The notes beneath the pieces were generated by a model. That model saw only the letters and a program-made list of their open reading frames with translations, was not told the DNA's origin and ran no database searches. The position numbers and the translations under genes were made by a program. Of a stretch of DNA of 64,000 bases, positions 5,480 to 58,892 are shown piece by piece; the stretch's first letter is position 1; every line of letters starts with the position of its first letter. The stretch covers positions 90,150,001 to 90,214,000 of the forward strand of contig NC_086108.1 of the NCBI RefSeq assembly GCF_963921235.1, written 5' to 3'. Origin of the DNA: Mobula hypostoma (taxonomy: Eukaryota).

Positions 5480-8446
5480 AAACACGGATGGTTGATACCT
5501 TCCAGGTGCCAGGGTCCGGGATGTTTCTGATTGCATCCACGATACCCTGAAGTGGGAAGGTGAACAGGCAGAGGTTGTGGTACATATTGGTACCAACGAC
5601 TTAGGTAGAAAAAGGGAGAAGGTCCTGAAAACAGACTACAGGGAGTTAGGAAGGAAGTTGAGAAGCTGGACCTCAAAGGTAGTAATCTCGGAATTATTGC
5701 CCGTGCCACGCAACAGTGAGTATAGGAATAGAGTGAGTTGGAGGACAAATGCGTAGCTGAGCGATTGAAGCGGGGGCAAGGATTCAGATTTCTGGGTCAT
5801 TGGAACCTCTTTAGGCAGGCGTGACTTGTACAAAACGGACAGGCTACACTTGAATCCAAGGGGGATCAATATCCTTGCAGGGAGGTTTGCTAAGGCTATT
5901 GGGGAGAGTTTAAACTAGGATTGCTGGGGGTGGGGTAGGAACTGAAGTGAAGAAATGGATGAAGAGGCTGTTGGCTCATAAATAGAGAAAGCTTGGAGAC
6001 AGTGCAAGAGGAGGATAGGCAGGTGATAGAGAAGGGATGTGCTCAATCAGATGGTTTGAGATGTGTCTATTTTAATGCAACAAGCACCATGAACAAAGTG
6101 GAGGAGCTTAGAGCATGGATCAGTACTTGGAGCTATATTGTTGTGGCCATTACAGAGACTTGGATGGCTCAGGGGCAGGAATGGTTACTTATGGTGCCAG
6201 GCTTTAGATGTTTTAGAAAGGACAGGGAGGGAGGCAAAGGAAGTGGGTGTGTGGTACTGCTGATCAGAGATAGTATCATGGCTGCAGAAAAGGAGGAAGT
6301 CATGGAGGGATTGTCTACTGAGTCTCTGTGGGTGGAAGTTAGAAACAAGAGGGGGGTCAGTAACTCTACTGAGAGTTTTTGTGGACCACCCAATAGTAAC
6401 AGGGACATCAAGGATCAGATAGGGAGATAGATTCTGGCAAAGCGTAATAATAATAGGGTTATCGTGGTGGGAGATATAATTTCGCAAATATTGATTGGCA
6501 TCTCCCTAGAGCAAGGGGTTTAGATGGAGTGGAGTTTGTTAGGTGTGTTCAGGAAGGTTTCCTGACACAATATGTAGGTAAGCCTACAAGAGGAAAGGCT
6601 GTACTTGATCTGGTATTGGGAAATTTATCTGGTCAGGTGTCAGGTCTCTCAGTGGGACAGCATTATGGAGAAAGTGATCACAACTCTATCTCCTTTACCA
6701 TTGGAGAGGGATAGGAACAGACAAGTTAGGAAAGTGCTTAATTGGAATAAGGGGAAATATGAAGCTATCGGACAGGAACTTGGAAGCATAAATTGGGAAC
6801 AGATATTCTCGGGGAAATGTATGACAGAAATGTGGCAAATGTTAAGGGGATATTTTTGTGGAGTTCTGCATAGGTATGTTCCAATGAGATAGGGAAAGGA
6901 TGACAGAGTACAGAAACCGTGGTGTACAAAGGCTGTTGTAAATCTAGTCAAGAAGAAAAGAAAAGCTTATGAAAGGTACAAAAAACTAGATAATGATAGA
7001 GATCTAGAAGATTATAAGGCTGGCAGGAAGGAGCTCAAAAATGAAATTAGGGGAGCCAGAAGGAGCCATGAGAAGGCCTTGGCAGACAGGATTAAGGAAA
7101 ACCCCAATGCATTCTACAAGTATGTGAAGAGCAAGAAGATAAGATGTGAGAGAATAGGACCAACCAAGTGTGACAGTAGAAAAGTGTGTATGGAACAGGA
7201 GGAGATAGCAGAGATACTTAATGAAAACTTTGCTTCAATATTCACTATGGAAAAGGATCTTGGCAATTGCAGGGATGACTTAGAGCAGATTGAAAAGCTT
7301 GAGCATATAGACATCAAGAAAGAGGATATGCTGGAGCTTTTGGAAAGCATCAAGTTGGATAAGTGTCCGGAACAGGACGAGATGTACCCCAGGCTACTGT
7401 GGGAGGTGAGGGAGGAGATTGCTGAGCCTCTGGCAATGATCTTTGCATCATCAATGGGGACAGGAGAGGTTCCGGAGGATTGGAGGGTTGTGGATGTTGT
7501 TCCATTATTCAAGAAAGGGAGTAGAGATAGCCCAGAAAATTATAGACAATGTGTCTTACTTCAGTGGTTGGTACGTTGACGGAAAAGATCCTGAGAGGCA
7601 GGATTTATGAACATTTGGAGAGGCATAATAGGATTAAGAATAGTCAGTATAGCTTTGTCAAAGGCAGGTCATGCCTTATGAGCCTGATTGAATTTTTTGA
7701 GGATGTAACTAAACATATTGATGAAGGAAGAGCAGTAGATGTAGTGTATCTGGATTTCAGCAAGGCATTTGATAAGGTACTGCATGCAAGGCTTATTGAG
7801 AAAGTAAGGAATCGTGGAATCCAAAGGGACATTGCTTTGTGGATCCAGAATTGGCTTGCCCACAGAAGGCAAAGAGTGGCTGTAGACGGGTCATATTTTG
7901 CATGGAGGTTGGTGACCAGTGGTGTGCCTTAGGTGTGCCTAATTTCAAGTTCTGGGTCCCTTACTCTTAGTGATTTTTATAAATGAGCTGGATGAGAAAG
8001 TGGAGGGATGGGTTAGTAAATTTGCTGATGACACAGAGGTTGGGGGTGTTGTGGATAGTGTGGAGGACTGTCAGAGGTTACAGAGGGGCATCAAAAGGAG
8101 GAGAAACTGGGCTGAGAAATGGCAGATGGATTTCATCCCAGACAAGTGTGAGGTGTTTCATTTTGGTACATCAAATATGATGGCAGAATATAGTGTTAAT
8201 GGTAAGAGTCTCAGCAGTGTGGAGGATCAGAGGGATTTTGGGACCCGAGTCCATAGGACACTCAAAGCTGCTGCCCACATTGACTGTGTGGTTAAGGTGG
8301 CATAAGGTGCATTGGCCTTCATCAACCATGGGATTGAGTTTAAGAGCTGAGAGGTAATGTTACAGCTACATAGGCCCTGGTCAGACCCCACTTGGAGTAC
8401 TGTGCTCTGTTCTGATCACCCCACTACGGAGAAGAATGTGGAAACT
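5480..8446 (+). mobile_element. CR1 LINE, decayed, 5' part: esterase ORF1 C-half plus APE and RT remnants of ORF2
   Basis: ORF1 remnants HIGTND and DRLHL; fragmented ORFs with YFNA, ITETW, SDH, PENYR, YLDFSKAFDKV and KFADD; many stops and frameshifts; interrupted by the HERO-like element. Confidence 0.92.
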
Positions 8447-28749: not shown

Positions 28750-31700
28750 AATGACAATGGCTCCAGGGGCTGTATTGTGTTCCTTGTGTGAGATGTGAGA
28801 ACCCTGGGAGACCTCCAGCCTCCCAGATAACCACATCTGCACCAGATGCACTGAGCTGCAGCTCCTCAGAGAACATGTGCAGGAACAGGAGCTGCAGCTC
28901 GATGACCTTTGCTTATACAGGAAACCGAGGAAGGGATGAAAGGAACTACAGGAAAGGTAGTCACCCCTAAGTTGCAGGATGCAGGTACCTGGGTGACTGT
29001 CAGGGGAGGGAAAGGGAATAGGCAGTCAATGCAGAGTACCCCTGTGGCTGTTCCACTCAAGAATAAGTATACCGCTTTAGATACTGGGACGACCTTCCGG
29101 GGAAGCCACAGTGACTGGGTCTCTGATATTAAGTCTGACTCTGTGGATCAGAAGGGAAGGGGGCAGAAGAGGAGAGCAGTAGTGATAGGAAATTCCATAG
29201 AGTAGACAGGAGATTCTGTGGACAAAAAAAAGAGACACCCAGATGGTATGTTGCCTCCCAGGTGCCAGGGTCAGGGATGTCTCAGATCAGGTCCCTGGTA
29301 TTCTAAAGGGGAAGGGTGAGCAGCAAGAAGTCTTGGTACTTATTGCCACCAGTGACATGGGTAGGAAAAGAGAGGAGGTCCTGAAGAGAAAATTTAGCGA
29401 GCTGGGTAGAAGACTGAAAAGCAGAACCTCCAGCGTAGTAAACTCTGCATTGCTACCTGTGCCAGACAGCAGTAAGGGTAAGAATAGAATGATTTGGCAG
29501 AGGAAGCATGGCTGGGGAATTAGTGCAAGAGACAGCATCTCAGATTTCTGGATCATTAGGATCTATTCTGGGAAAGGCATGACCTGTACAAACAGAGTGG
29601 GTTACGCCTGAACCTGAGGGGGACAAATATCCTTGTAGGCAGGTTTGTTAGAACTGTTGGGGAGGGTTTAAACTAATTGAGCAGTGGGATGGGAAACTGA
29701 GTGGTAGGGCTGAGGATGGGGCAGTTGGTATTAAGCAGAGGCAGCGTGTCGTGAGGCTGTCAGGAAGGACTGGCAGATGGTAGGGCAAAATTGCAGTCAG
29801 TAGAATGAGTTGCAATATAACAGGGACCAAATCAAAAAGGGTGATGAGTACAGGACCAGAAGTGTTATATTTGAATGCATGCAGTACACAGAATAATGTA
29901 GATGATCTTGTAGCACAGTAAGAGATTGGCAGGAATGACGTGGGGATTATTGAGTCATGGCTGAAAGAAGATCATAGTTGGGAGCTTAACATTCAGGGAC
30001 ACATATTGTGTCAAAAGCACAAGCAGGTAGTTGGAGGGGATGGGTTGGCTCTAGTAAAAAATGAAATCACATCCTTACAAAGAGGTGACATAGGATCAGA
30101 AGAAGTAGAACTGTTGGGGATAGAGCTAAGGAACTGCAAGGGTGAAAAGATCCTGATGAGGGTTATATACAGGCCTCCAAACAGTAGCCATGATGTGGGA
30201 TACAAATTACAATGGAAGATAGAAAATGCATATCAAAATGGCAATGTTACGAGAGTCATGGGGAATTACAATATGCACGAAGATTGGGAAAATCAGGTTT
30301 GTGCTGCTTTTTTTCCCCAAGAGAGAACATTTGTAGAATGCCTATGAGATGGCTTTTTAGAGCAGCTTCTGGTTCAGTTCACTAGAGCATCTACCATCTG
30401 CTTAAGTAAGTAGCCCAAGAAATAGTGGATGCAATAGTGATAATTTTTCAAAACTCTTTAGATTCTGGACTAGTTCCCGAGGATTGGAGGGTGGCTAATG
30501 TAACCCCGCTTTTTAAAAAAGGAGGGAGAGAGAAACCGGGGAATTATAGACCGGTTAGCCTGACATCGGTGGTGGGGAAAATGCTAGAGTCAGTGATCAA
30601 AGATGTGATAACGGCACATTTGGAAAGCGGTGAAATCATCGGACAAAGTCAGCATGGATTTGTGAAAGGAAAATCATGTCTGACGAATCTCATAGAATTT
30701 TTTGAGGATGTAACTAGTAGAGTGGATAGGGGAGAACCAGTGGATGTGCTATATTTGGATTTTCAAAAGGCTTTTGATAAGGTCCCACAGAGGAGATTAG
30801 TGTGCAAACTTAAAGCACACGGAATTGGGGGTATGGTATTGATGTGGATAGAGAATTGGTTGGCAGACAGGAAGCAAAGAGTGGGAATAAACGGGACCTT
30901 TTCAGAATGGCAGGCAGTGACCAGTGGGGTACCGCAAGGCTCAGTGTTGGGACTCCAGTTGTTTACAATATATATTAATGACTTAGACGAGAGAATTAAA
31001 TGCAGCATCTCCAAGTTTGCGGATGACACAAAGCTGGGCGGCAGTGTTAGCTGTGAGGAGGATGCTAAGAGGATGCAGGGTGACTTGTATAGGTTAGGTG
31101 AGTGGGTAAATTCATGGCAGATGCAATTTAATGTGGATAAATGTGAGGTTATCCACTTTGGCGGCAAAAACAGGAAAACATATTATTATCTGAATGGTGG
31201 CCGATTAGGAAAAGGGGAGGTGCAATGAGACCTGGGTGTCATTGTACACCAGTCATTGAAAGTGGGCATGCAGGTACAGCAGGCGGTGAAAAAGGCGAAT
31301 GGTATGCTGGCATTCATAGCAAGAGGATTTGAGTACAGGAGCAGGAAGGTACTACTGCAGTTGTACAAGGCCTTGGTGAGTCCACACCTGGAGTATTGTG
31401 TGCAGTTTTGGTCCCCTAATCTGAGGAAAGACATTCTTGCCATAGAGGAAGTACAGAGAGGGTTCACCAGATTGATTCCTGGGATGGCAGGACATTCATA
31501 TGATGAAAGACTGTATCGACTAGGCTTATACTCGTTAGAATTTAGAAGATTGAGGGGGGATCTTATTGAAACGTATAAATTCCTAAAGGGATTGGACAGG
31601 CTAGATGCAGGAAGATTGTTCCCGATGTTGGGGAAGTCCAGAACGGGGGTCACAGTTTAAGGATAAAGGGGAAGCCCTTTAAGACCGGGATGAGGAAAAA

Positions 31701-34232
31701 CTTCTTCACACAGAAAGTGGTGAATCCGTGGAATTCTCTGCCACAGGAAACAGTTGAGGCCAGTTCATTGGCTATATTTAAGAGGGAGTTAGATATGGTC
31801 CTTGTGGCTAAAGGGATCGGGGGTATGGAGAGAAGGCAAGTACAGGGTTCTGAGTTGGATGATCAGCCATGATCATACTGAATGGCGGTGCAGGCTCGAT
31901 GGGCCGAATGGCCTACTCCTGCACCTATTTTCTATGTTTCTATTCTGGATTGGATGTTTTATAATGAATTGGATTTGATTGGGGTGCTGAAGGTAAAACA
32001 ACCCTTAGGAGGCAATGATCATAATATGATAAAATTCACTCTGCAGTTTGAGGAGAAGCTGAAGTCAATTTATCAGTTATTAAAGTAGAGTAAAGGGAAT
32101 TACAGAGGTATGAGAGAGGAGCTGGCAAAGTTAATGGGAAAGGAGCACTACCAGGGATGATGTAAGAGCAGCAATGGCTGGAGTTCCTAGGATCAATTCA
32201 GAAGGTGCAGGATAGATACATCCCAAAGAAGAAGTATTCTAAAGCCAGCATGACACAAGGGATATCAAAGCCAACATAAAAGCAAAAGAGAAGGCATTTT
32301 ATGGAGCAAAAAATATTGGGGAATTAGAGGATTGGGAAGGTTTTAAAAACCAACAGATAACAATTAAAAAAGTCATAAGGAATGAAAAAAATGAAATGAA
32401 GGTAAACTAGTCAATAATATCAAAGAGGATACCAAAAGTGTTTTCAGTTATATAAAAAGTAAAAGTGAGGTGAGAGTAGATATTGCACTGCTGGAAAATG
32501 ACACTGGAGAGGTAGTAATTAGGACCAAGGAAATGGTGAATGAACTAAGTATTTTGCAACAGTTTCTGTTGTGGAAGACACTAGCCGTATGCCAGATGTT
32601 TGAGAGTGTCAGGGGTCAGATCTGAATGTAGTTGCTATTACTAGTAAGAAGGTGATTAGGGAGCTGAAAGGTCTGAAGGAAGATAGTTCACCTGGACCAG
32701 ATGGACTACACACAAGAGTTCTGAAAGAGGTAGCTGAAGAGATTGTGGAGCAATTATTCATGGTCTTTCAAGAGCCACTACATTCTGGCTTAGTTCTGGA
32801 GGACTGGAAAATTGCAAATGTCACTCCACTTTTCCAAGAAGTCAGTGAGGCAGACGAAAAGAAATTATAGGCCTGATCTCAGTGGTTGGGAAGATGTTGG
32901 AGTTGATTGTTAAGGATAAGGTTTCTAGGTACATAAGGGAAAATGATAAAATGGGCAAAAGTCAGCATGGTTTTCTTAGGGAAAAATCTTGCCTGACAAA
33001 TATGTAGGAATTCTTTGAGGAAATAGAAAGCATGATAGATAAAGGAGAATCGGTGAATGTTGAATACTTGGATTTTGAAAAGCCCTTTGACAAGGTGCTA
33101 CGCATGAGGCGGCTTAGTAAGATAAGAGCCCATTGTATAACAGGAAAGATGGATAGAGCATTGGCTGATTGGCAGGAGGCAAAAAGTGGGGACAAAAGGA
33201 GACTTTTCTGATGAGCTGCCAGTGGTTAGTGGTGTTCCACAGGGGTCAGAGTTGGGACACTTTTTTTTTAACATTGTTTGTCAATTATTTAGATGATGGA
33301 ATTGATGCCTTTTTGGTCAAGTTTGCAGATGATACAACGATAGCTGGAGGTAAGGTAGTGTTGAGGAAGCAAAGAGTCTGCAGAAGGACTTGGGCAGATT
33401 GGGAGAATGGGCAAAGAAGTGGCAGATGGAATACAGTGTCAGGAAGTGTATGGTCTTGAACTTTAGTAGAAGAAATAAAAGCATAGGCTATTTTCTAAAC
33501 ACGGAGAAAATTAAAAAATCTGAGGTTCAAAGGGACTTGGATGTCTTCTTGCAGGATTCCCTAAAGGTTATCTTGCAGGTGGAGTCTGTGGTGAGGAAGA
33601 CAAATGCAATGTTAGCATTCATTTCAAGAGGAATGGAATAGAAAAACAAGGATGTAATGTTGGGGCTTTCAAAGGCACTGTGAGACCTCATGTGGAGTAT
33701 TGTGATCAGTTTTGGCCCACAAATCAAAGAAAATATTTGCTAATATTGGGAATGGTTCAAAGGAGGTTCACAAAAAATGATTCCAGGTTTGAAGGACTTA
33801 ATCATACAAGAAGCATTTGAAGGGTCTAGGCCTTTACTCACTGTAATTTAGAAGAATGAGGGTTATTTCACTGAAACCTATCAAACGTTGAAATGCTTTG
33901 ATAGAGCCGATGTGGAGAGGATGTTTCCTATAGTAAGGGAGTCTATGGCCAGAGGGCAGAACCTCAGAATAGAGGGATGTCCATTTAGAACAGAGATGAG
34001 GAGAAATTTCTGAAGCCAGAGGGGTGGTGAATCTGTGGAATTTATTGCCACAGGCAGCTTGGAAGGCCAGGTCATTGAATTTATTTAAGGTGGAGGTTGA
34101 TAGATTCTTGATAAGTCAGGGTTTCAAAAGTTATGGGGAGAAAGGTGGAGAACGGGGTTGAAAGGGAATTGGCTCAGCCAAGATAAAATCACACAGAACT
34201 CAATGGGCCAAATGGCTCCAAGGTCTTATGTC
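28750..34232 (+). mobile_element. Old near-full-length CR1 LINE, with a younger CR1 nested at 30394-31942
   Basis: ORF1 remnants (CSLC, W.TVR.GKG, VIGNSI, CLPGARV, ending GEGLN*); ORF2 remnants (IIESW, IYRPP, NDH, SPGPDG, KFADD); degenerate 3' tail. Confidence 0.85.
30394..31942 (+). mobile_element. Young CR1, 5'-truncated, same subfamily as 44254-48555
   Basis: ORF 30425-31228 closely matches the RT part of ORF 45428-48460; CGA>TGA stop at 31226-31228; host reads gcatcta|ttctggattgg across it. Confidence 0.92.
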
Positions 34233-42722: not shown

Positions 42723-44269
42723 GCCCTCAACACAAGATGCCCCTCCTCAACTCTCCATGCTGCTGACCTTCAAAAGCAGAGTGGATGCCTCACTCCTAAC
42801 CCCTCCATACCTCTGTCCCTAAACCTTATTCTGACCTCTAACTCTCTCATATCAATGTCCCAGAACCTAATCTGACCCCTATCTCCCCTCTCAGTCCCCA
42901 AAACCATCTCTATGAACTGCTAAAACAACTAAGCTCGCGCCGCGATCTTAAAAGAGGCTGCACCTTGGCACCATTTTAACCATGTACTGTATTCAATTGG
43001 AACATTTCCCCTCTTTCAATTGCATATCTCAATTCTATGATTATTTCTCTAATTTCACCTAAAATATAGAAGGGGACATTGTCCCGTTATCTAGACTTTC
43101 ACTCAAGCAATCCAATTAATTTCATTCTTTCCCTGTAATGTAATCTAATTTATATGCCTATAAATCCCTCCATTCTCTTCCACCTTTCACAGAGTTTTTT
43201 TCATAGGGAAGTACTGCACAGAATCAGGCCTTTCACCCATCTACTTCATGCTGAAACCATTTAAGCTGCCTACTTGCACCCATCGACTTACACCGGGACC
43301 ATAGCCCTCCATACCCCTCCTATCCAAGTAAATATTCAAACTTCTCTTAAACATTGAAATTGAGCTCACATGTATCATTTATGCTGGCAGCTCATTTCAC
43401 AACCCCCAGAGTGAAGAAGTTCCCCCTCATGTTCTCCTTAAACTTCTCACCTTTCACCTGTGGTTGCAGTCCGACCCAACTTCGGTAGTAAAAGTCTGCT
43501 TGCATTTACCCCATTTATACACCTCATAATTTTGTATAGCTCTATTAAATCTCCTCTCAACCTTCTACATTCTAAGAAATAAAGTCCTAATCTATTCAAT
43601 CTTTCCTTATAATTCAGGCCCTCCAGACCTGGCAACATCCTTGCAAATTTTCTCTGTACTCTTTCAATCTTATTTACATCTTTCCTGTACATAGGTGACC
43701 AAAACTGCACAAAATACTCAAAATTAGGCCGTATTAACATCTAATACAACTTCAACATAACATCCCATTTCCTGTACTTAAAACATTGATTTACGAAGGC
43801 CAATGTGCCAAAACCTTTCCTTATGACTCTATCTGTGACACCACTTTCAATGAATTATGGATCTGTATTTCATGATCCCTTTGTTCTACCGCACTTCTTG
43901 GTGCCCTGCTTTTCACTGTGTAAAACCTACCCTGGCTGCTCCTACCAAAGTATAAAACCTCACACTTGTCTACATTAAATTCTATCCACTGCCTTGCCTT
44001 CACCCATTTTCCTGGTAACTTTCTCAAAAAACTGTATAAGATTGATTAATTACGATCTAACATGCACAAAGCCATGCTGACTATCGTTAATCAGTCCACG
44101 TCTATCCAAATATATATCCAGTCCTTTAGAGTACCTTCCAATAACTTTCCCACAACTGACAAACATATAATTTCCTGGTTTCTGTTTAGAGCCTTTTTTA
44201 AACAGCTATCCTCCAATCCTCTGATACCTGTCGTGTCATTTAGAATGATTTAACTATTTATTTACGGCT

Positions 44270-44455
44270 TTCTGAGAGGCGGGACTGCGCAGGCGTGTGA
44301 CGTCGGGCAGTGCAGCGCGGCAGATTTAAAAGGAACAAAGCCTCATAGAGCGGGCAGCGTGGTTTGCGGGCTGCAGAGTGAGCCGGGAGCAGAGTGAAGA
44401 CTTAAGGGCTTCGGCTCACCGGGCTTAGGCGGAAGCGGGCGAGGCGAGGAAGGTT
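44270..44455 (+). promoter_or_regulatory. Putative internal Pol II promoter in the CR1 5' UTR
   Basis: CpG-dense stretch with GC box gaggcgggac, NRF1-like tgcgcaggcg, CRE-like tgacgtc and tttaaaa. Confidence 0.5.
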
Positions 44456-44495
44456 TGACATTCATTTTCTGTTGCTATTTGAGGAGAGGGGCATT

Positions 44496-45422
44496 ATGAT
44501 TGTGAGGGCAGTTTGCTGTTCTCGGTGTCGGATGTGGGAGGCCCTGGAGTCTCCAAGCCTCCCGGACGTCTACATCTGCGCCAAGTGCATCGAGATGCAG
44601 CTCCTAAGGGACCGCGTTACGGAACTGGAGCTGCAGCTCGATGACCTTCGTCTGGTCAGGGAGAGCGAAGAGGTGATAGAGAGGAGTGGAAGGCAGGTGG
44701 TCACGCCGGGGCCATGGGAGGCAGACAAGTGGGTCACGGTTAGGAGGGGGAAGGGGAAAAGGCAGGTGATGGGGAGTACCCCGGTGGCTGTGCCCCTTAA
44801 CAACAGGTACTCCTGTTTGAGTACTGTTGGGGGGGACAGCTCACCCGGGGGAAGCGACAGTGGCCGTGCCTCCGGCACAGACTCTGGCCCTGTAGCTCAG
44901 AAGGGTAGGGCAAGGAAGAGGAGGGCAGTTGTGATAGGGGACTCGATAGTAAGGGGGTCAGATAGGCGATTCTGTGGACGCAGTCCAGAGACCCGGATGG
45001 TAGTTTGCCTCCCTGGTGCCAGGGTCCGGGATATTTCTGATCGTGTCCAAGATATCCTGAAGTGGGAGGGTGAGGAGCCAGAGGTCGTGGTACATATAGG
45101 TACCAATGACATAGGTAGGAAAAGGGATGAGGTCCTGAAAGGAGAATATAGGGAGCTAGGAAGGGAGTTGAGAAAAAGGACCACAAAGGTAGTAATCTCG
45201 CCTGTGCCACGCGACAGTGAGAGTAGGAATGCGATGAGGTGGAGGATAAATGCGTGGCTGAGGGGTTAGAGCAGGGGGCAGGGATTCAAGTTTTTGGATC
45301 ATTGGGACCTCTCTTGGCGCAGGCGTGACCTGTACAAAAAGGACGGGTTACACTTGAATCCTAGGGGGACCAATATCCTGGCGGGGAGATTAGCGGGCGC
45401 TACTGAGGTGACTTTAAACTAG
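44496..45422 (+). pseudogene. CR1 ORF1 (CxxC...CxxC zinc finger, leucine zipper, SGNH esterase) with one premature stop
   Basis: ATG at 44496; CSRC..CAKC; LRDRVTELELQLDDL; VIGDS and HIGTND; in-frame TAG at 45267-45269; the frame then continues DHWDL..KDGLHLNPRGTNILAG..TLN* to 45422. Confidence 0.9.
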
Positions 45423-48400
45423 AATGGTTGGGGGGTGGGAATCAAATTAAAGAGGCTAGGCGTGAGGAGGTTAGTTCACAACAGAGGGATGGGAACCAGT
45501 GCAGAGAGACAGAGGGGTGTAAAGTGAGCGTAGAAGCAAAAAGTACAAAGGAGAAAAGTAAAAGTGGCAGGCCGACAAATCCAGGGCAAGCATTAAAAAG
45601 GGCCACTTTTCAACATAATTGTACAAGGGCTAAGAGAGTTGTAAAAGAGCGCCTGAAGGCTTTATGTGTCAATGCAAGGAGCATTCGTAATAAGGTGGAT
45701 GAATTGAAAGTGCAGATTGTTATTAATGATTATGATATAGTTGGGATCACAGAGACATGGCTCCAGGGTGACCAGGGATGGGAGCTCAACGTTCAGGGAT
45801 ATTCAATATTCAGGAGGGATAGACATGAAGGAAGGGGAGGTGGGGTGGCGTTGCTGGTTAAAGAAGAGATTAACGCAATAGAAAGGAAGGACATAAGCCG
45901 GGAAGATGTGGAATCGATATGGGTAGAGCTGCGTAACACTAAGGGGCAGAAGACGCTGGTGGGAGTTGTGTACAGGCCACCTAACAGTAGTAGTGAGGTC
46001 GGAGATGGTATTAAACAGGAAATTAAAAATGTGTGCAATAAAGGAACAGCAGTTATAATGGGTGACTTCAATCTACATGTAGACTGGGTGAACCAAATTG
46101 GTAAAGGTGCTGAGGAAGAGGATTTCTTGGAATGTATGCGGGATGGTTTTTTGAACCAACATGTCGAGGAACCAACTAGAGAGCAGGCTTTTCTGGACTG
46201 GGTTTTGAGCAATGAGGAAGGGTTAATTAGCGATCTTGTCGTGAGAGGCCCCTTGGGTAAGAGTGACCATAATATGGTGGAATTCTTCATTAATATGGAG
46301 AGTGACATAGTTAATTCAGAAACAAAGGTTCTGAACTTAAAGAGGGGTAACTTTGAAGGTATGAGACATGAATTAGCTAAGATAGACTGGCAAATGACAC
46401 TTAAAGGATTGACGGTGGATATGCAATGGCAAGCATTTATAGATTGCATGGATGAACTACAACAATTGTTCATCCCAGTTTGGCAAAAGAATAAATCAAG
46501 GAAGGTAGTGCACCCGTGGCTGACAAGAGAAATTAGGGATAGTATCAATTCCAAAGAAGTAGCATACAAATTAGCCAGAGAAAGTGGCTCACCTGAGGAC
46601 TGGGAGAAGTTCAGAGTTCAGCAGAGGAGGACAAAGGGCTTAATTAGGAAGGGGAAAAAAGATTATGAGAGAAAACTGGCAGAGAACATAAAAACGGACT
46701 GTAAAAGCTTTTATAGATATGTAAAAAGGAAAAGACTGGTAAAGACAAATGTAGGTCCCCTGCAGACAGAAACAGGTGAATTGATTATGGGGAGCAAAGA
46801 CATGGCAGACCAATTGAATAATTACTTTGGTTCTGTCTTCACTAAGGAGGACATAAATAATCTTCCAGAAATAGTAAGGGACAGAGGGTCCAGTGAGATG
46901 GAGGAACTGAGTGAAATACATGTTAGTAGGGAAGTGGTGTTAGGTAAATTGAAGGGATTGAAGGCAGATAAATCCCCAGGGCCAGATGGTCTGCATCCTA
47001 GAGTGCTTAAGGAAGTAGCCCAAGAAATAGTGGATGTATTAGTGATAATTTTTCAAAACTCGTTAGATTCTGGACTAGTTCCTGAGGATTGGAGGGTGGC
47101 TAATGTAACCCCAATTTTTAAAAAAGGAGGGAGAGAGAAACCGGGGAATTATAGACCGGTTAGCCTAACGTCGGTGGTGGGGAAACTGCTGGAGTCAGTT
47201 ATCAAGGATGTGATAACAGCACATTTGGAAAGCGGAGAAATGATCGGACAAAGTCAGCATGGATTTGTGAAAGGAAAATCATGTCTGACGAATCTCATAG
47301 AATTTTTTGAGGATGTAACTAGTAGAGTGGATAGGGGAGAACCAGTGGATGTGGTATATTTGGATTTTCAAAAGGCTTTTGACAAGGTCCCACACAGGAG
47401 ATTAGTGTGCAAACTTAAAGCACACGGTATTGGGGGTAAGGTATTGGTGTGGGTGGAGAATTGGTTAGCAGACAGAAAGCAAAGAGTGGGAATAAACGGG
47501 ACCATTTCAGAATGGCAGGCGGTGACTAGTGGGGTACCGCAAGGCTCAGTGCTGGGACCCCAGTTGTTTACAATATATATTATTGACTTGGATGAGGGAA
47601 TTAAATGCAGCATCTCCAAGTTTGCGGATGACATGAAGCTCGGCGGCAGTGTTAGCTGTGAGGAGGATGCTAAGAGGATGCAGGGCGACTTGGATAGGTT
47701 GGGTGAGTGGGCAAACTCATGGAAGATGCAATTTAATGTGGATAAATGTGAAGTTATCCACTTTGGTGGCAAAAATAGGAAAACAGATTATTATCTGAAT
47801 GGTGGCCGATTAGGAAAAGGGGAGGTGCAACGAGACCTGGGTGTTATTATACACCAGTCATTGAAAGTGGGCATGCAGGTACAGCAGGCGGTGAAAAAGG
47901 CGAATGGTATGCTGGCATTTATAGCGAGAGGATTCGAGTACAGGAGCAGGGAGGTACTACTGCAGTTGTACAAGGCCTTGGTGAGACCACACCTGGAGTA
48001 TTGTGTGCAGTTTTGGTCCCCTAATCTGAGGAAAGACATCTTTGCCATAGAGGGAGTACAAAGAAGGTTCACCAGATTGATTCCTGGGATGGCAGGACTT
48101 TCATATGAAGAAAGACTGGATGAACTGGGCTTGTACTCGTTGGAATTTAGAAGATTGAGGGGGGATCTGATTGAAACGTATAAGATCCTAAAGGGATTGG
48201 ACAGGCTAGATGCAGGAAGATTGTTCCCGATGTTGGGGAAGTCCAGAACGAGGGGTCACAGTTTGAGGATAGAGGGGAAGCCTTTTAGGACCGAGATTAG
48301 GAAAAACTTCTTCACACAGAGAGTGGTGAATCTGTGGAATTCTCTGCCACAGCAAACTGTTGAGGCCAGTTCATTGGCTATGTTTAAGAGGGAGTTAGAT

Positions 48401-48460
48401 ATGGCCCTCGTGGCTACAGGGGTCAGGGGGTATGGAGGGAAGGCTGGGGCGGGGTTCTGA
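45407..48460 (+). CDS. CR1 ORF2: AP endonuclease plus reverse transcriptase, uninterrupted
   Basis: APE motifs VNARS, ITETW, VYRPP, MGDFN, SDH; RT motifs PGNYRPVSL, QHGF, YLDFQKAFDKV, GVPQGSVLGP, FADD, RDLGV. Frame is open from 45407; the called start 45428 is TTG; first ATG is at 46058. Confidence 0.95.
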   Translation, partial: GDFKLEWLGGGNQIKEARREEVSSQQRDGNQCRETEGCKVSVEAKSTKEKSKSGRPTNPGQALKRATFQHNCTRAKRVVKERLKALCVNARSIRNKVDELKVQIVINDYDIVGITETWLQGDQGWELNVQGYSIFRRDRHEGRGGGVALLVKEEINAIERKDISREDVESIWVELRNTKGQKTLVGVVYRPPNSSSEVGDGIKQEIKNVCNKGTAVIMGDFNLHVDWVNQIGKGAEEEDFLECMRDGFLNQHVEEPTREQAFLDWVLSNEEGLISDLVVRGPLGKSDHNMVEFFINMESDIVNSETKVLNLKRGNFEGMRHELAKIDWQMTLKGLTVDMQWQAFIDCMDELQQLFIPVWQKNKSRKVVHPWLTREIRDSINSKEVAYKLARESGSPEDWEKFRVQQRRTKGLIRKGKKDYERKLAENIKTDCKSFYRYVKRKRLVKTNVGPLQTETGELIMGSKDMADQLNNYFGSVFTKEDINNLPEIVRDRGSSEMEELSEIHVSREVVLGKLKGLKADKSPGPDGLHPRVLKEVAQEIVDVLVIIFQNSLDSGLVPEDWRVANVTPIFKKGGREKPGNYRPVSLTSVVGKLLESVIKDVITAHLESGEMIGQSQHGFVKGKSCLTNLIEFFEDVTSRVDRGEPVDVVYLDFQKAFDKVPHRRLVCKLKAHGIGGKVLVWVENWLADRKQRVGINGTISEWQAVTSGVPQGSVLGPQLFTIYIIDLDEGIKCSISKFADDMKLGGSVSCEEDAKRMQGDLDRLGEWANSWKMQFNVDKCEVIHFGGKNRKTDYYLNGGRLGKGEVQRDLGVIIHQSLKVGMQVQQAVKKANGMLAFIARGFEYRSREVLLQLYKALVRPHLEYCVQFWSPNLRKDIFAIEGVQRRFTRLIPGMAGLSYEERLDELGLYSLEFRRLRGDLIETYKILKGLDRLDAGRLFPMLGKSRTRGHSLRIEGKPFRTEIRKNFFTQRVVNLWNSLPQQTVEASSLAMFKRELDMALVATGVRGYGGKAGAGF

Positions 48461-48840
48461 GTTGGATGATCAGCCATGATCATAATAAATGGCGGTGCAG
48501 GCTCGAAGGGCCGAATGGCCTACTCCTGCACCTATTTTCTATGTTTCTATGTTTCTAAATATCTCTGCTCAGGCCCTGGAAATTTATGCACGTAGGGTCC
48601 AAAGGAATACCTTGTCAGGCCCTAGGGATTTATCCATTGCCTCATGGTAGCAAACACCTCCTTGTCTGTAATCTGCGCAGGGTCCATGAAGCTGATGGCA
48701 CTTCGTCTCACCTCTATAGACTGTGTATCTGTCTCCTTAGTAAATACAGGTACAAGGAATTTATTTATGATCTCCTCAATTTCTTTTGGCTTCACACGTG
48801 GATTAGCTTTCTGGTATTCCAAAGGACAAATTTTGTCCCT

Positions 48841-48995: not shown

Positions 48996-51164
48996 CTTCT
49001 TTCAGTCTTCCTGATTTCTTTCTTTGGTGTTCTCTTGCATTTTTTATGCTCCATAAGCACCTCATTTGTTCCTACTTGCCCATTCCTGCTATGCAGCTCT
49101 TTACTTCTCTTAACCAGGGCCTCAATATCTCTTAAAAACCAAGGGTCTCTACACTCATTATCTTTACCTTTCATTCTGACAGGCACATACAAGCTTTGTA
49201 CTCTCAAACTTCTGATTCTGAAGCCCTTTGCCAGAAAACAACCCTGTCCTAATCCACAATTGGTAGGTCATTTCGGATACCATCAAAATTGGCCTTTCTC
49301 CAATTTAGAGTCTCAACCCGCAGACTAGACTTTTTGCACATTTACTTTGAAACTAATAGCATTGTGGTCACTAGATACAATGTGTTCCGCTACACAAATT
49401 TCTGTCATCTGCCCTGTCTCATTCCCTAATAGCAGATCCAGTATCGCACATTATCTTGTTGGGACCTCTGATGAAGGAAACTTTCCTGAAACATAAGACG
49501 AACTCTATCCCATCTAGTCCTTCTACAGTATGAGATTCCCAGTCAATATGTGGAAAGTTAAAATTGCTTGCTATAACAACCTTATGTTTCTTGCAACAGT
49601 CTGTGACCCCTTTACAAATTTGTTCCTCTAAATCCCACGGACTGTTGGGTGGTCTGTAATATAGCCCCATTAATGTGGTCGTATGTTTCTTTAATCCCTC
49701 CCGCTCTGTTGCATCAAAGCAACTGAACCCCTGAACACTGAGCTGGCAGTCCCGCCCCTCCTGTAACCTAGTCTCGCTAATGGGTACAGTATTATAATTC
49801 CATGTTAGTCCATGCCCTGAATTCATCCGCCCTTCCTACGATATTTCTTGCATCGAAGTACACACAGCCCAGGGCACTAGTCGTGCTATGCTCACCCTTT
49901 TGATTTCTGACTTTGACTCAGGTTTTACCAATATCTGCCTCCACAACGTCTCTACTAACTGTTGTTGCACTCTGGTTCCCATCCCCCTGAAACTCTAGTT
50001 TAAACCCCACTGTGCTGCATTAACAAACTTTCCCTCTAGGATTTTAGTCTCTATCCAACCCAGGTGCAAACCGTCTCTTCTGTACAGGTCCCACCTTCCC
50101 TGGAAGGGAGCCCAATGATGGAAAAATCTTATGCTCAATGATCCAAAAAGCTTATGCCCTCCCTCCTACACCAACTCCTTACCCACATGTTAAACTGTAT
50201 AAACTTCCTAGTTCTGGCCTCTTCAGCGCATGGCACTGGTAACAATCCTCAGATCACAATCCTGGATGTCCTGCCCTTTAACTAGCACCTAACTCCCTGA
50301 ACTCCCTGGCCAGAACCTTATCACTCGTCTTATCCCTGTCTTTGGTACCTACATAGACCACAACTTCTGGCTGTTCATCTTCCCACTCAAGAATGCTGAG
50401 GACTCCATCGGAGATGTTCCAGATACTGACACCCGGGAGGCAACTTACCATCTGGGAATCTTGTTCTTGCCCACAAACCTCCTGTCCATTCCCCTAACTA
50501 ATGAAACCCCTATCACCACAGCTCACCTCTTCTACTTCTTCCCTTCTGAATCACAGAGCCAGACTCAGTGCCAGTGAACCAACCACTGTGACTTTCCTCT
50601 GTTAGATCGTTTCCCCTAACATTATCCAAAGCGATATACCTGTTGTTGAGGGGGATGGCCACAAGAATACTCTGCATTGGCTGTTAAACGGCTTTCCCCT
50701 TCCTGACTGTCACCCACTTCCCGTGTCCTGTACCTTGGGTGTAACTACCTTTCTATACGTCCTATCTATAACCCCCTCAAGCCTCCCGAATGATCCAGAG
50801 TTCGTCCAATTCCAGCTCCAACTCCTTAACACAGATCATTAAAAGCTGCAGCTGGATGCACTTCTTGAAGTTGGAGTCATCAGGGACCCTAACGGTCTCC
50901 CAGCTTTTCTACATCCAACAAGAAGTGCATTCAACTATCCTGCCTAGCATCTCGGCTGCCCCTAACTGAGCAGATATAACGAAGGGAAGGGGAAATAATG
51001 CTTTACCCAGAGCTTTCTGTTTTTTGCTTTCTCTGACTGAAGCCTCCCTTTGCTGAAGCCTTGAAGAGCTCAGGACAAGATCACCACTCCAACTCTGTCC
51101 ACGCCGACAATGGCCGCAGCGCTCACTCCGTCCTTTCGTTTGCTCTTGCTAATCAACCCTAATG

Positions 51165-55841: not shown

Positions 55842-58800
55842 CATAGAAACATAGAAACATAGAAACATAGAAAATAGGTGCAGGAGTAGGCCATTCGGCC
55901 CTTCGAGCCTGCACCGCCATTTATTATGATCATGGCTGATCATCCAACTCAGAACCCAGCCTTCCCTCCATACCCCGTGACCCCTGTAGCCACAAGGGCC
56001 ATATCTAACTTCCTTTTAAACATAGCTAATGAACTGGCCTCAACAGTTTGCTGTGGCAGAGAATTCCACAGATTCACCACTCTCTGTGTGAAGAAGTTTT
56101 TCCTAACCTCGGTCCTAAAAGGCTTCCCCTCTATCCTCAAACTGTGACCCCTCATTCTAGACCTCCCCAACATCGGGAACAATCTTCCCGCATCTAGCCT
56201 GTCCAATCCCTTTAGGATCTTATACGTTTCAATCAGATCCCCCCTCAATCTTCTAAATTCCAACGAGTACAAGCCCAGTTCATCCAGTCTTTCTTCATAT
56301 GAAAGACCTGCCATCCCAGGAATCAATCTGGTGAACCTTCTTTGTACTCCCTCTATGGCAAGGATGTCTTTCCTCAGATTAGGGGACCAAAACTGCACAC
56401 AATACTCCAGGTGTGGTCTCACCAAGGCCTTGTACAACTGCAGTAGTACCTCCCTGCTCCTGTACTCGAATCCTCTCGCTATAAATGCCAGCATACCGTT
56501 CGCCTTTTTCACCGCCTGCTGTACCTGCATGCCCACTTTCAATGACTGGTGTATAATGACACCCAGGTCTCGTTGCACCTCCCCTTTTCCTAATCGGCCA
56601 CCATTCAGATAATAATCTGTTTTCCTATTTTTGCCACCAAAGTGGATAACTTCACATTTATCCACATTAAATTGCATCTGCCATGAGTTTGCCCACTCAC
56701 CCAACCTATCCAAGTCACCCTGCATCCTCTTAGCATCCTCCTCACTGCTAACACTGCCACCCAGCTTCGTGTCATCCGCAAACTTGGAGATGCTGCATTT
56801 AATTCCCTCATCCAAGTCATTAATATATATTGTAAACAACAGGGGTCCCAGCACTGAGCCTTGCGGTACCCCACTAGTCACCGCCTGCCATTCTGAAAAG
56901 GTCCCGTTTATTCCCACTCTTTGCTTCCTGTCTGCTAACCAATTCTCCACCCACACCAATACCTTACCCCCAATACCATGTGCTTTAAGTTTGCACACTA
57001 ATCTCCTGTGTGGGACCTTGTCAAAAGCCTTTTGAAAATCCAAATATACCACATCCACTGGTTCTCCCCTATCCACTCTACTAGTTACATCCTCAAAAAA
57101 TTCTATGAGATTCGTCAGACATGATTTTCCTTCCACAAATCCATGCTGACTTTGTCCGATCATTTCACCGCTTTCCAAATGTGCTGTTATCACATCCTTG
57201 ATAACTGACTCCAGCAGTTTCCCCACCACCGACGTTAGGCTAACCGGCCTATAATTCCCCGGTTTCTCTCTCCCTCCTTTTTTAAAAAGTGGGGTTACAT
57301 TAGCCACCCTCCAATCCTCAGGAACTAGTCCAGAATCTAACGAGTTTTGAAAAATTATCACTAATGCATCCACTATTTCTTGGGCCACTTCCTTAAGCAC
57401 TCTGGGATGCAGACCATCTGGCACTGGGGATTTATCTGCCTTCAATCCCTTCAATTTACCTAACACCACTTCCCTACTAACATGTATTTCGCTCAGTTCC
57501 TCCATCTCACTGGACCCTCTGTCCCTTACTATTTCTGGAAGATTATTTATGTCCTCCTTAGTGAAGACAGAACCAAAGTAATTATTCAATTGGTCTGCCA
57601 TGTCCTTGCTCCCCATAATCAATTCACCTGTTTCTGTTTGCAGGGGACCTACATTTGTCTTTATCAGTCTTTTCCTTTTTACATATCTATAAAAGCTTTT
57701 ACAGTCCGTTTTTATGTTCTCTGCCAGTTTTCTCTCATAATCTTTTTTCCCCTTCCTAATTAAGCCCTTTGTCCTCCTCTGCTGAACTCTGAATTTCTCC
57801 CAGTCCTCAGGTGAGCCACTTTCTCTGGCTAATTTGTATGCTACTTCTTTGGAATTGATACTATCCCTAATTTCTCTTGTCAGCCACGGGTGCACTACCT
57901 TCCTTGATTTATTCTTTTGCCAAACTGGGATGAACAATTGTTGTAGTTCATCCATGCAACCTTTAAATGCCTGCCATTGCATATCCACCGTCAATCCTTG
58001 AAGTGTCATTTGCCAGTCTATCTTAGCTAATTCATGTCTCATACCTTCAAAGTTACCCCTCTTTAAGTTCAGAACCTTTGTTTCTGAATTAACTACGTCA
58101 CTCTCCATGTTAATGAAGAATTCCACCATATTATGGTCACTCTTACCCAAGGGGCCTCTCACGACAAGATCGCTAATTAACCCTTCCTCATTGCTCAAAA
58201 CCCAGTCCAGAATAGCCTGCTCTCTAGTCGGTTCCTCGACATGTTGGTTCAAAAAACCATCCCGCATACATTCCAAGAAATCCTCTTCCTCAGCACCTTT
58301 ACCAATTTGGTTCACCCAGTCTACATGTAGATTGAAGTCACCCATTATAACTGCTGTTCCTTTATTGCACACATTTCTAATTTCCTGTTTAATACCATCT
58401 CCGACCTCACTACTACTGTTAGGTGGCCTGTACACAACTCCCAGCAGCGTCTTCTGCCCCTTAGTGTTACGCAGCTCTACCCATATCGATTCCACATCTT
58501 CCCGGCTTATGTCCTTCCTTTCTATTGCGTTAATCTCTTTTTTAACCAGCAACGCCACCCCACCTCCCCTTCCTTCATGTCTATCCCTCCTGAATATTGA
58601 ATATCCCTGAACGTTGAGCTCCCATCCCTGGTCACCCTGGAGCCATGTCTCTGTGATCCCAACTATATCATAATCATTAATAACAATCTGCACTTTCAAT
58701 TCATCCACCTTATTACGAATGCTCCTTGCATTGACACATAAAGCCTTCAGGCGCTCTTTTACAACTCTCTTAGCCCTTTTTAATGCTTGCCCTGGATTTG

Positions 58801-58892
58801 TCGGCCTGCCACTTTTACTTTTCCCCTTTGTACTTTTTGCTTCTACGCTCACTTTACACCCCTCTGTCTCTCTGCACTGGTTCCCATCCCTC
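55842..58892 (-). mobile_element. Young CR1, 5'-truncated just inside ORF2, inverted relative to 44254-48555
   Basis: (acatagaa)n tail at 55842; similarity to the + copy ends at 58892 (equivalent to 45484); possible TSD ttaa. Confidence 0.96.
55949..58891 (-). CDS. CR1 ORF2 (APE plus RT), uninterrupted but orphaned
   Basis: Same motifs as 45407-48460, including FADD; the first codons of the called ORF (MNTPSYL) come from flanking DNA. Confidence 0.9.
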   Translation of the reverse strand, partial: RDGNQCRETEGCKVSVEAKSTKGKSKSGRPTNPGQALKRAKRVVKERLKALCVNARSIRNKVDELKVQIVINDYDIVGITETWLQGDQGWELNVQGYSIFRRDRHEGRGGGVALLVKKEINAIERKDISREDVESIWVELRNTKGQKTLLGVVYRPPNSSSEVGDGIKQEIRNVCNKGTAVIMGDFNLHVDWVNQIGKGAEEEDFLECMRDGFLNQHVEEPTREQAILDWVLSNEEGLISDLVVRGPLGKSDHNMVEFFINMESDVVNSETKVLNLKRGNFEGMRHELAKIDWQMTLQGLTVDMQWQAFKGCMDELQQLFIPVWQKNKSRKVVHPWLTREIRDSINSKEVAYKLARESGSPEDWEKFRVQQRRTKGLIRKGKKDYERKLAENIKTDCKSFYRYVKRKRLIKTNVGPLQTETGELIMGSKDMADQLNNYFGSVFTKEDINNLPEIVRDRGSSEMEELSEIHVSREVVLGKLKGLKADKSPVPDGLHPRVLKEVAQEIVDALVIIFQNSLDSGLVPEDWRVANVTPLFKKGGREKPGNYRPVSLTSVVGKLLESVIKDVITAHLESGEMIGQSQHGFVEGKSCLTNLIEFFEDVTSRVDRGEPVDVVYLDFQKAFDKVPHRRLVCKLKAHGIGGKVLVWVENWLADRKQRVGINGTFSEWQAVTSGVPQGSVLGPLLFTIYINDLDEGIKCSISKFADDTKLGGSVSSEEDAKRMQGDLDRLGEWANSWQMQFNVDKCEVIHFGGKNRKTDYYLNGGRLGKGEVQRDLGVIIHQSLKVGMQVQQAVKKANGMLAFIARGFEYRSREVLLQLYKALVRPHLEYCVQFWSPNLRKDILAIEGVQRRFTRLIPGMAGLSYEERLDELGLYSLEFRRLRGDLIETYKILKGLDRLDAGRLFPMLGRSRMRGHSLRIEGKPFRTEVRKNFFTQRVVNLWNSLPQQTVEASSLAMFKRKLDMALVATGVTGYGGKAGF

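What the first reader, a model, noticed from the sequence alone, without database searches (positions are those of the whole stretch)
45407..45440. CR1 ORF2 appears to be expressed by programmed -1 ribosomal frameshifting at a conserved U_UUA_AAC site
Seen: ORF1 of the young CR1 ends ACT TTA AAC TAG (heptamer 45413-45419). ORF2 is in the -1 frame, overlaps it (open from 45407) and has no ATG until 46058 (codon 211), inside the endonuclease. The same heptamer in the same phase, immediately before the ORF1 stop, occurs at the three other divergent CR1 junctions here: 5909-5915 (AGT TTA AAC TAG), 29667-29673 (GGT TTA AAC TAA) and minus-strand 49998-50004 (GGT TTA AAC TAG). The preceding residue varies (T, S, G), but its wobble T, Leu=TTA and Asn=AAC do not. 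In the minus-strand copy the -1 frame runs Met-free, with one stop substitution, into the endonuclease start (CVYFDARNI). Established: UUUAAAC is the X_XXY_YYZ slippery site of coronaviruses, and -1 frameshifting is typical of retroviruses and LTR elements, whereas L1 ORF2 uses termination-reinitiation. Inference: these LINEs make a gag-pol-like ORF1(esterase)-ORF2(APE-RT) fusion, with the ratio set by slippage. I do not know of this being demonstrated for CR1, but I cannot search the literature.
Basis: partly seen in the sequence, partly recalled or inferred. Interest (0 to 1): 0.9.

Follow-up and report, generated by a model that had tools for sequence, protein, structure and literature searches.

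The report
Conserved frameshift signal in CR1 LINEs
CR1 jumping genes of rays and birds keep the same virus-like seven-letter slippery site, followed at a fixed distance by a G-rich box, where their first gene ends, which suggests that ribosomes make the second (copying) protein by slipping back one base, a mechanism not found described for these elements and not yet shown by experiment.

Summary
Observation confirmed and extended. All four CR1 junctions read T_TTA_AAC_stop in ORF1 phase. ORF2 lies in the -1 frame, and in the young family its first ATG is inside the endonuclease. The exact heptamer is present in 15 of 16 in-register CR1 lineages (9 ray, 7 bird-like). The last Leu codon is TTA in 16 of 16, while other conserved Leu codons vary. 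ORF1 homologues from sharks to amphibians, turtles, squamates and birds end Leu-Asn; some distant ones end Gln-Gly-Asn or Ser/Ala-Lys-Asn, matching G_GGA_AAC and A_AAA_AAC. No local hairpin was found. This layout resembles the protein-stimulated PRRSV signal. Best reading: programmed -1 frameshifting giving an ORF1-ORF2 fusion (0.75), untested. Main rival: reinitiation, since 6 of 16 lineages have an AUG just past the stop. Ten literature searches found no report for CR1, but the original CR1 papers were not held. The scan noted a similar slippery-stop junction in a LINE of another genome (e1-7350016).

The parts
44255..48557 (+). Young, near full-length CR1 LINE (family C here): 5' UTR, esterase ORF1, APE-RT ORF2, 3' stem-loop, (TTTCTATG)n tail, no poly(A)
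   Evidence: 5' ends of family copies cluster at 44255 (7 of 30) and 44287 (10 of 30); 40 of 1087 genomic candidates scored, all 99-100% identical over 45200-45700
44496..45422 (+). ORF1: Cys-rich N-terminus, coiled coil, SGNH esterase, ending ...EVTLN-stop; this copy has a nonsense codon at 45267-45269
   Evidence: Pfam Lipase_GDSL_2; ZfL2-1 ORF1 esterase 4C1B by sequence and by fold of homologue P0057
45413..45419 (+). Slippery heptamer U_UUA_AAC in ORF1 phase, directly before the ORF1 stop
   Evidence: 15 of 16 lineages
45420..45429 (+). ORF1 stop (TAG) plus 7 variable nt: a spacer fixed at 10 nt
45430..45439 (+). G-box GGGGG-NN-GGG, candidate frameshift stimulator (function inferred)
   Evidence: positions +19 to +22 are G in 16 of 16 lineages, +18 in 15, +25 to +27 in 15, 16 and 14; no local fold; no Rfam family
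45413..48460 (+). ORF2 in the -1 frame: 83-codon linker, APE endonuclease from about 45662, reverse transcriptase; first ATG at 46058 within IMGDFN
45484..45493 (+). Second, degenerate G-box: the point where family C joins the ORF2 of the L169-type family
48494..48532 (+). 3' UTR stem-loop before the tandem tail
   Evidence: predicted fold; its role as the RT recognition site is recalled, not tested
5909..5935 (+). Junction of family A copy: heptamer, TAG, spacer, G-box
29667..29693 (+). Junction of family B copy: heptamer, TAA, spacer, G-box with one substitution
49978..50004 (-). Junction of family D copy: heptamer, TAG, spacer, G-box

Best explanation
Vertebrate CR1 elements express ORF2 by programmed -1 ribosomal frameshifting. 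Most ribosomes translate ORF1 and stop at the codon after U_UUA_AAC. A minority, paused with Leu-tRNA on UUA and Asn-tRNA on AAC, slip back one base to UUU and AAA, read CUA next, and continue through a variable 36-108-codon linker into the endonuclease and reverse transcriptase. The product is an ORF1p-linker-ORF2p fusion (predicted junction ...EVTLN-LEWLGGGNQ in family C). The pause is most likely supplied by the adjacent stop together with the G-box 10 nt downstream, probably through a bound protein and not a local pseudoknot. Shown: the sequence layout, its phase, its conservation and the lack of an AUG in the young family. Inferred: slippage, the fusion protein, and the role of the G-box. 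Lineages with an AUG after the stop may also make free ORF2p by reinitiation.
For: (1) Heptamer exact in 15 of 16 lineages; the wobble T before it is T in 16 of 16, Leu is TTA in 16 of 16 and Asn is AAC in 15 of 15, whereas upstream conserved Leu positions use TTG/CTG or CTG/CTT/CTA; TTA is 16 of 114 Leu codons in the element. (2) 133 of 254 ORF1 homologues end in Leu-Asn, including named ray, shark, coelacanth, frog, turtle, squamate and bird proteins. Only 2 of 117 distinct tails have, before Leu-Asn, a residue that cannot be encoded with a third-position T, against 168 of 936 at the eight positions further up. (3) Of 155 homologues with a scorable tail, 106 end LN, 10 GN and 3 KN; 9 of 11 GN ends follow Gln, fitting G_GGA_AAC. 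[quoted passage not shown] (4) The endonuclease start was in the -1 frame in 29 of 30 family C copies where it was found, and in most copies for 9 of the 12 other lineages where it was found; 30 of 31 family C copies are open through codon 90, and 24 of 31 have their first Met at codon 216, behind the VNARS, ITETW and VYRPP motifs. (5) The -1 reading Phe-Lys-Leu also appears in frame-broken database proteins from a stingray, a stork and an unnamed distant lineage. (6) G-box at a fixed spacer: 22,790 matches genome-wide against 16 for the reversed pattern; 1,710 start one base earlier and 590 one base later. PRRSV uses a 10-nt spacer to an unstructured, protein-bound motif (PMC4937337). (7) Family C shares ORF2 with the L169 family (90% over the first 40 endonuclease residues) but not its ORF1 tail (53%); it carries its own heptamer in -1 register and lacks the L169 AUG.
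Against: No translation data of any kind. No local stimulatory structure in 10 of 10 folded segments (z from -0.50 to 1.30), so the signal is not canonical. An ATG sits in ORF2 codons 4-6 in 6 of 16 lineages (5 of 7 bird-like, 1 of 9 ray), two as UAAUG, and each of the other 10 has a near-cognate codon there. 35 of 155 homologues, mostly distant ones, end in dipeptides not compatible with a slippery site. Lineages are related, so counts are not independent; 6 of the 7 bird-like lineages rest on one genomic copy, and one of them (L096) lacks the heptamer. One upstream synonymous site (third base of the Leu in GLHL) is also fixed in 16 of 16. The GN and KN heptamers are inferred from protein only; no DNA was obtained. 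No clearly intact in-frame ORF1-ORF2 fusion was found among 9 longer homologues.
Confidence: 0.75

Rival explanations
1. ORF2 is made only by termination-reinitiation. Ribosomes stop at the ORF1 stop and restart at an AUG or near-cognate codon 1-7 nt further on, as in SART1 (UAAUG) and as proposed for L1. The heptamer and G-box would then be part of the reinitiation signal.
For: ATG in ORF2 codons 4-6 in 6 of 16 lineages, UAAUG in 2 of 16, near-cognate codons in the other 10. UGGGA occurs 69-110 nt upstream in the first copy of 12 of 16 lineages. SART1 coupling is described in PMC3708506, and AUG-independent L1 ORF2 initiation in PMC5009743 and PMC1965478.
Against: It does not explain an in-phase X_XXY_YYZ with fixed wobble bases, or the apparent switch to other shifty heptamers. 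Codon 5 is TGG in 3 lineages, GAC in 2 and AGT in 1. The UGGGA copies sit at varying positions and derive from Trp codons of the esterase. The youngest family lacks the AUG of its ORF2 relative.
Confidence: 0.15
2. A spliced or internally initiated transcript supplies ORF2, using an AG at or just after the ORF1 stop.
For: Two bird gene models jump from mid-ORF1 into the -1 frame at this place (P0279, P0281; these look like predicted introns). 15 of 16 lineages have some AG within +8 to +18.
Against: The AG position varies and is missing in one lineage, and 7 of 16 stops are TAA or TGA. No polypyrimidine tract precedes it. None of the 15 joints shown (of 49) in four runs is a GT-AG joint at the junction (contigs only, RNA status a guess).
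Confidence: 0.04
3. The conservation reflects protein needs: Leu-Asn closes the last esterase helix and Gly-x-Gly is needed in ORF2.
For: The model of homologue P0057 has a helix running to the penultimate residue.
Against: Synonymous positions are fixed: TTA 16 of 16, AAC 15 of 15, first Gly GGG 16 of 16, while GGG is 40 of 117 Gly codons in the element. It offers no route to ORF2 translation.
Confidence: 0.03
4. The heptamer and G-box are an RNA or DNA signal for another step (packaging, reverse transcription, or pairing with the 3' tail), and ORF2 is made by an unrelated route.
For: The G-box is complementary to the C-rich arm of bird-type 3' ends (6 of 6 pairings with 1-5 of 200 shuffles as good). 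One 5'-truncated copy starts at the second G-box.
Against: In ray families only 1 of 8 own-tail pairings stood out (3 of 200; the others 54-144 of 200), and the best pairing in family C was no better than shuffles. It does not explain the reading phase.
Confidence: 0.03

Closest known systems
Canonical -1 programmed frameshift at U_UUA_AAC (coronavirus 1a/1b; retroviral gag-pro-pol type)
   Same: Identical heptamer in the right phase, enzyme ORF in the -1 frame without its own start, structural ORF upstream (PMC5009743 passages).
   Different: Host is a non-LTR element with no protease. No hairpin or pseudoknot was found within 100 nt. The spacer to the conserved 3' element is 10 nt.
PRRSV nsp2 -2/-1 frameshift (nsp1beta plus PCBP on CCCANCUCC)
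   Same: No obvious downstream structure; a short low-complexity motif of two runs split by two bases; wild-type spacer of 10 nt, efficient at 9-11 nt (PMC4937337 passages).
   Different: The motif here is G-rich, the slip site differs, and no binding protein is known or tested.
Dictyostelium TRE5-A / TRE3-A LINEs
   Same: APE-type LINEs stated to need a -1 frameshift for ORF2 (PMC5911963, figure legend passage).
   Different: Unrelated ORF1 and host. I did not see their slip site or the primary evidence.
SART1 and L1 ORF2 termination-reinitiation
   Same: ORF2 begins next to the ORF1 stop; UAAUG occurs in 2 of 16 CR1 lineages (PMC3708506).
   Different: Gives free ORF2p and needs no slippery site; no heptamer constraint is expected.
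CR1 subgroup 7 with type IVB esterase ORF1 (Metcalfe and Casane 2014); chordate canonical CR1
   Same: ORF1 with zinc finger, leucine zipper and esterase; ORF2 with APE and RT; vertebrate range (PMC4120745; bioRxiv 2026.01.13.699120).
   Different: Word searches in PMC4120745 found no 'frameshift' or 'overlap', and the bioRxiv survey has no 'translat'.

Membership tests
CR1 LINE with esterase ORF1 | ORF2 with APE endonuclease then reverse transcriptase | tested here: met
   Pfam Exo_endo_phos 100-286 and RVT_1 570-790
CR1 LINE with esterase ORF1 | ORF1 with SGNH esterase | tested here: met
CR1 LINE with esterase ORF1 | 3' stem-loop and short tandem tail, no poly(A) (feature recalled) | tested here: met
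CR1 LINE with esterase ORF1 | RT falls in the canonical CR1 clade, not L2 | not tested
   No RT tree with reference elements was built; the ORF1 hits are sauropsid, amphibian and shark proteins without clade labels. PMC-external preprint says chondrichthyan L2 lack ORF1, which favours CR1.
Programmed -1 ribosomal frameshift | X_XXY_YYZ heptamer in the zero-frame phase | tested here: met
Programmed -1 ribosomal frameshift | Downstream ORF in the -1 frame, open from the slip site, no own start needed | tested here: met
   for family C; an AUG is present near the stop in 6 of 16 lineages
Programmed -1 ribosomal frameshift | Conservation of the slip site at synonymous positions | tested here: met
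Programmed -1 ribosomal frameshift | Stimulatory hairpin or pseudoknot a few bases downstream | tested here: not met
   no fold better than shuffles in 10 of 10 segments; no common structure in 16 segments; pseudoknots were not modelled explicitly
Programmed -1 ribosomal frameshift | Transframe product demonstrated | not testable with these tools
   no ribosome profiling, proteomics or reporter data
Protein-stimulated frameshift (PRRSV type) | Short unstructured motif at a fixed 9-11 nt spacer | tested here: met
   PRRSV range
Protein-stimulated frameshift (PRRSV type) | A trans-acting protein binds the motif and is required | not testable with these tools
   no binding data
Termination-reinitiation (SART1 type) | AUG overlapping or adjacent to the ORF1 stop | tested here: inconclusive
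   AUG in 6 of 16, UAAUG in 2 of 16, absent from the youngest family

The most novel reading that the evidence does not exclude
CR1 uses a protein-directed -1 frameshift: the G-box 10 nt behind U_UUA_AAC is bound by a trans-acting factor, either ORF1p itself through its Cys-rich and basic regions or a host G-tract-binding protein. Reverse transcriptase would then be made only as an ORF1p fusion and only once ORF1p has built up. This would be a frameshift switch of the arterivirus/cardiovirus type in a transposon, kept since sharks and birds diverged.
Probability: 0.3. Interest if true: 0.92.

Novelty: new variant of a known kind. Interest (0 to 1): 0.82.

Why it matters
CR1 is the most abundant transposed element of birds, crocodilians, turtles and snakes (PMC4316615, search listing), and CR1-group elements cover 22-34% of shark and ray genomes. 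How LINE ORF2 is translated is called unclear in PMC3708506. A retrovirus-like frameshift would mean the catalytic protein is an esterase-endonuclease-RT fusion, that ORF2 start sites annotated at the first Met are wrong, and that constructs which separate the two ORFs miss the natural product. It would also add a very widespread natural frameshift signal with no structural stimulator, and it makes the question testable with a 60-100 nt reporter insert.

Tried and rejected
Local hairpin after the slip site: none in 10 of 10 segments. G-quadruplex: predicted in 3 of 16 segments only. Rfam: one chance hit, E 4.3. Pairing of the G-box with the rest of the element: not above shuffles in family C; 1 of 8 ray tails stood out; bird-type pairings used unlinked copies, so inconclusive. 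The ATG one base after the stop in family C opens only an 8-codon frame outside ORF2 and is not shared by other families. Two recurring genomic variants that looked like non-slippery CR1 junctions were checked on one copy each; both translate as C-termini of other ORFs with no credible ORF1 match, so they are not counter-examples. Non-T wobble (1,562 matches, control 147) and CTN-Leu (179, control 23, longer pattern) variants are spread over the same family spacers and look like decay after insertion (only the first 100 rows of each seen). The fifth TTTAAACTAG at 17441 has no esterase upstream and no G-box. Sequencing runs: no RNA holder listed on record; contigs of four runs showed no GT-AG joint at the junction. 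Viral contigs gave no relatives and prokaryotic contigs only two weak hits. The endonuclease had no PDB sequence match at E 0.001. The open-linker test on 13 chosen copies is circular, because open copies were picked, and is not used as evidence. Of 169 loci, 50 could not be anchored (mostly cut before the ORF1 end); of 22 clusters, 6 were dropped as off-register or damaged. Four papers were not held.
Full report
Observation. The window holds a young LINE at about 44255-48557 and three older relatives with ORF1/ORF2 junctions. At all four, ORF1 ends T_TTA_AAC followed at once by a stop (5909, 29667, 45413 and minus 50004). In the young copy ORF2 is open for 1017 codons in the -1 frame, and its first ATG is at 46058. 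That ATG lies in the motif IMGDFN, behind VNARS (45668), ITETW (45746) and VYRPP (45968). From my own knowledge these are catalytic motifs of APE endonucleases, so starting at that ATG would give a broken enzyme.

What the element is. ORF1 carries an SGNH esterase (Pfam; PDB 4C1B by sequence, and by fold of a homologue). ORF2 carries APE and RT domains. The 3' end has a stem-loop and a TTTCTATG tail. This matches the vertebrate esterase-type CR1 of PMC4120745 (passages). I built no RT tree. The 3.48-Gb genome is ray-like; the best named ORF1 hit is a Mobula protein at 96%.

Conservation at the DNA level. I collected 169 loci from this genome and from animal DNA in metagenome contigs. 119 could be anchored on the esterase tail without using the last three residues; 93 have the exact heptamer at the predicted place, 7 within 3 nt, and 19 are mutated. 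They form 22 clusters, of which 6 were dropped as off-register or damaged, leaving 9 ray and 7 bird-like lineages. Among the 11 representatives compared, ORF1 tails share 21-79% identity and most linkers 12-54%. The heptamer is exact in 15 of 16; the exception is one single copy. The wobble base before Leu is T in 16 of 16 although the residue varies, Leu is TTA in 16 of 16, and Asn is AAC in 15 of 15. Conserved Leu positions upstream use TTG/CTG or CTG/CTT/CTA. One upstream third position is also fixed, so fixed wobble bases are not unique to the heptamer. Lineages are related and 6 of the 7 bird-like ones are single copies.

Conservation at the protein level. Of 254 ORF1 homologues, 133 end in Leu-Asn, among them named proteins of rays, sharks, coelacanth, frogs, turtles, squamates and birds. 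The residue before Leu-Asn is E, Q, K, M or W, which cannot end in T, in only 2 of 117 distinct tails, against 168 of 936 at the eight positions before it (not independent, and helix position could contribute). Of 155 homologues with a scorable tail, 106 end LN, 10 GN and 3 KN, and 35 end in dipeptides that fit no slippery site. The query alignment itself ended in LN, which slightly favours such hits. Gly-Asn follows Gln in 9 of 11 cases, as G_GGA_AAC would require a G-ending codon. [quoted passage not shown] No DNA was found for those lineages. The -1 reading Phe-Lys-Leu shows up in frame-broken database proteins of a stingray, a stork and an unnamed distant lineage.

A second element. After the stop come 7 variable bases and then GGGGG-NN-GGG, so the box begins exactly 10 nt after the heptamer. 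Four of its positions are G in 16 of 16 lineages. In the genome the pattern heptamer-TRR-7N-GGGGG occurs 22,790 times against 16 for the reversed control; G-runs starting one base earlier or later give 1,710 and 590. These are copy counts, not independent events. No local structure beats shuffles in 10 segments, a G-quadruplex is predicted in 3 of 16, and Rfam has nothing. The PRRSV signal has no obvious structure either, and a C-rich protein-binding motif at a 10-nt spacer (PMC4937337 passages). Pairing with the 3' tail was tested and is inconclusive.

A natural swap. From 45481 on, family C aligns closely with the L169 family, starting at that family's G-box (90% over the first 40 endonuclease residues), while their ORF1 tails are 53% alike. 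L169 has UAAUG at its stop. Family C has its own heptamer, G-box and 21 extra codons in -1 register, and no AUG, yet its scored copies are 99-100% identical, so it was recently active. The direction of the exchange is inferred, not tested with a tree.

Mechanism. Most likely a fraction of ribosomes slip -1 on U_UUA_AAC and make an ORF1p-linker-APE-RT fusion, with the stop and the G-box providing the pause (0.75). The layout and conservation are shown; slippage, fusion and the role of the G-box are inferred.

Evidence against. An ATG lies in ORF2 codons 4-6 in 6 of 16 lineages (5 of 7 bird-like), and each of the other 10 has a near-cognate codon there. SART1 uses UAAUG coupling (PMC3708506 passage), and L1 ORF2 can start without its AUG (PMC5009743 and PMC1965478 passages). 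Reinitiation alone (0.15) cannot be excluded and may coexist with frameshifting, but it does not predict an in-phase slippery heptamer. Splicing is unlikely: no fixed acceptor, and no GT-AG joint at the junction among 15 of 49 joints shown in four contig sets whose RNA status is a guess. No clearly intact in-frame fusion was found among 9 longer homologues.

Literature. Ten full-text searches listed no paper on frameshifting in CR1. I read passages only, by word search, of 15 papers: PMC11835228, PMC5009743 (first 300,000 of 449,034 characters; no 'CR1'), PMC3708506, PMC13708176, PMC4937337, PMC3905857, PMC4255032, PMC1965478, PMC5405496, PMC5911963, PMC8665684, PMC4120745, PMC2734521, PMC11303007 and bioRxiv 2026.01.13.699120. 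Precedents in other LINEs: a -1 frameshift is stated for Dictyostelium TRE5-A and TRE3-A, and +1 frameshifting or reinitiation is suggested for Paramecium elements. Kapitonov and Jurka 2003, the SART1 paper and two recalled identifiers for the original turtle and chicken CR1 papers were not held. Repbase and Dfam notes and all supplements were not seen, so an earlier mention of the overlap cannot be excluded.

Verdict. New variant of a known kind; interest 0.82. The boldest open reading is a protein-directed frameshift in a transposon (probability 0.3).

Noticed in passing
window 55852-58892 (-): 5'-truncated family C copy, 97% identical to the young element, begins exactly at the second G-box; an ATG in the flanking DNA happens to open a 988-codon frame over its ORF2.
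   Followed up: partly
window 45481-45500; L169: Family C looks chimeric: a different ORF1 and junction joined to an L169-type ORF2 at the G-box, which may act as an exchange point between CR1 families.
   Followed up: partly
window 30399-31943 (+): A 5'-truncated family C-like copy (94%) with its 3' tail is inserted inside the older family B element, which resumes at about 31924.
   Followed up: no
L143:1410-1490, L139:950-1030: The C-rich arm of bird-type CR1 3' ends is complementary to the bird-type G-box (about -21 kcal/mol); not linked on one element and not general in ray families.
   Followed up: partly
ORF1 homologues P0112, P0114, P0116, P0120: Several bird-like ORF1 proteins have lost the His of the esterase DxxH motif but still end Leu-Asn.
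   Followed up: no
window 24446-26518 (+): Broken reading frames resembling an LTR-retrotransposon pol (RT- and integrase-like motifs, label recalled) seen in the six-frame listing.
   Followed up: no
window 8682-9422 (-): A 247-codon open frame with a Cys/His motif (CKLCG...HI) of another retroelement type, inserted behind the family A copy.
   Followed up: no
P0021, L148: CR1 ORF1-like sequences filed under bacterial names (Pseudomonas, Providencia), probably animal DNA contamination.
   Followed up: no
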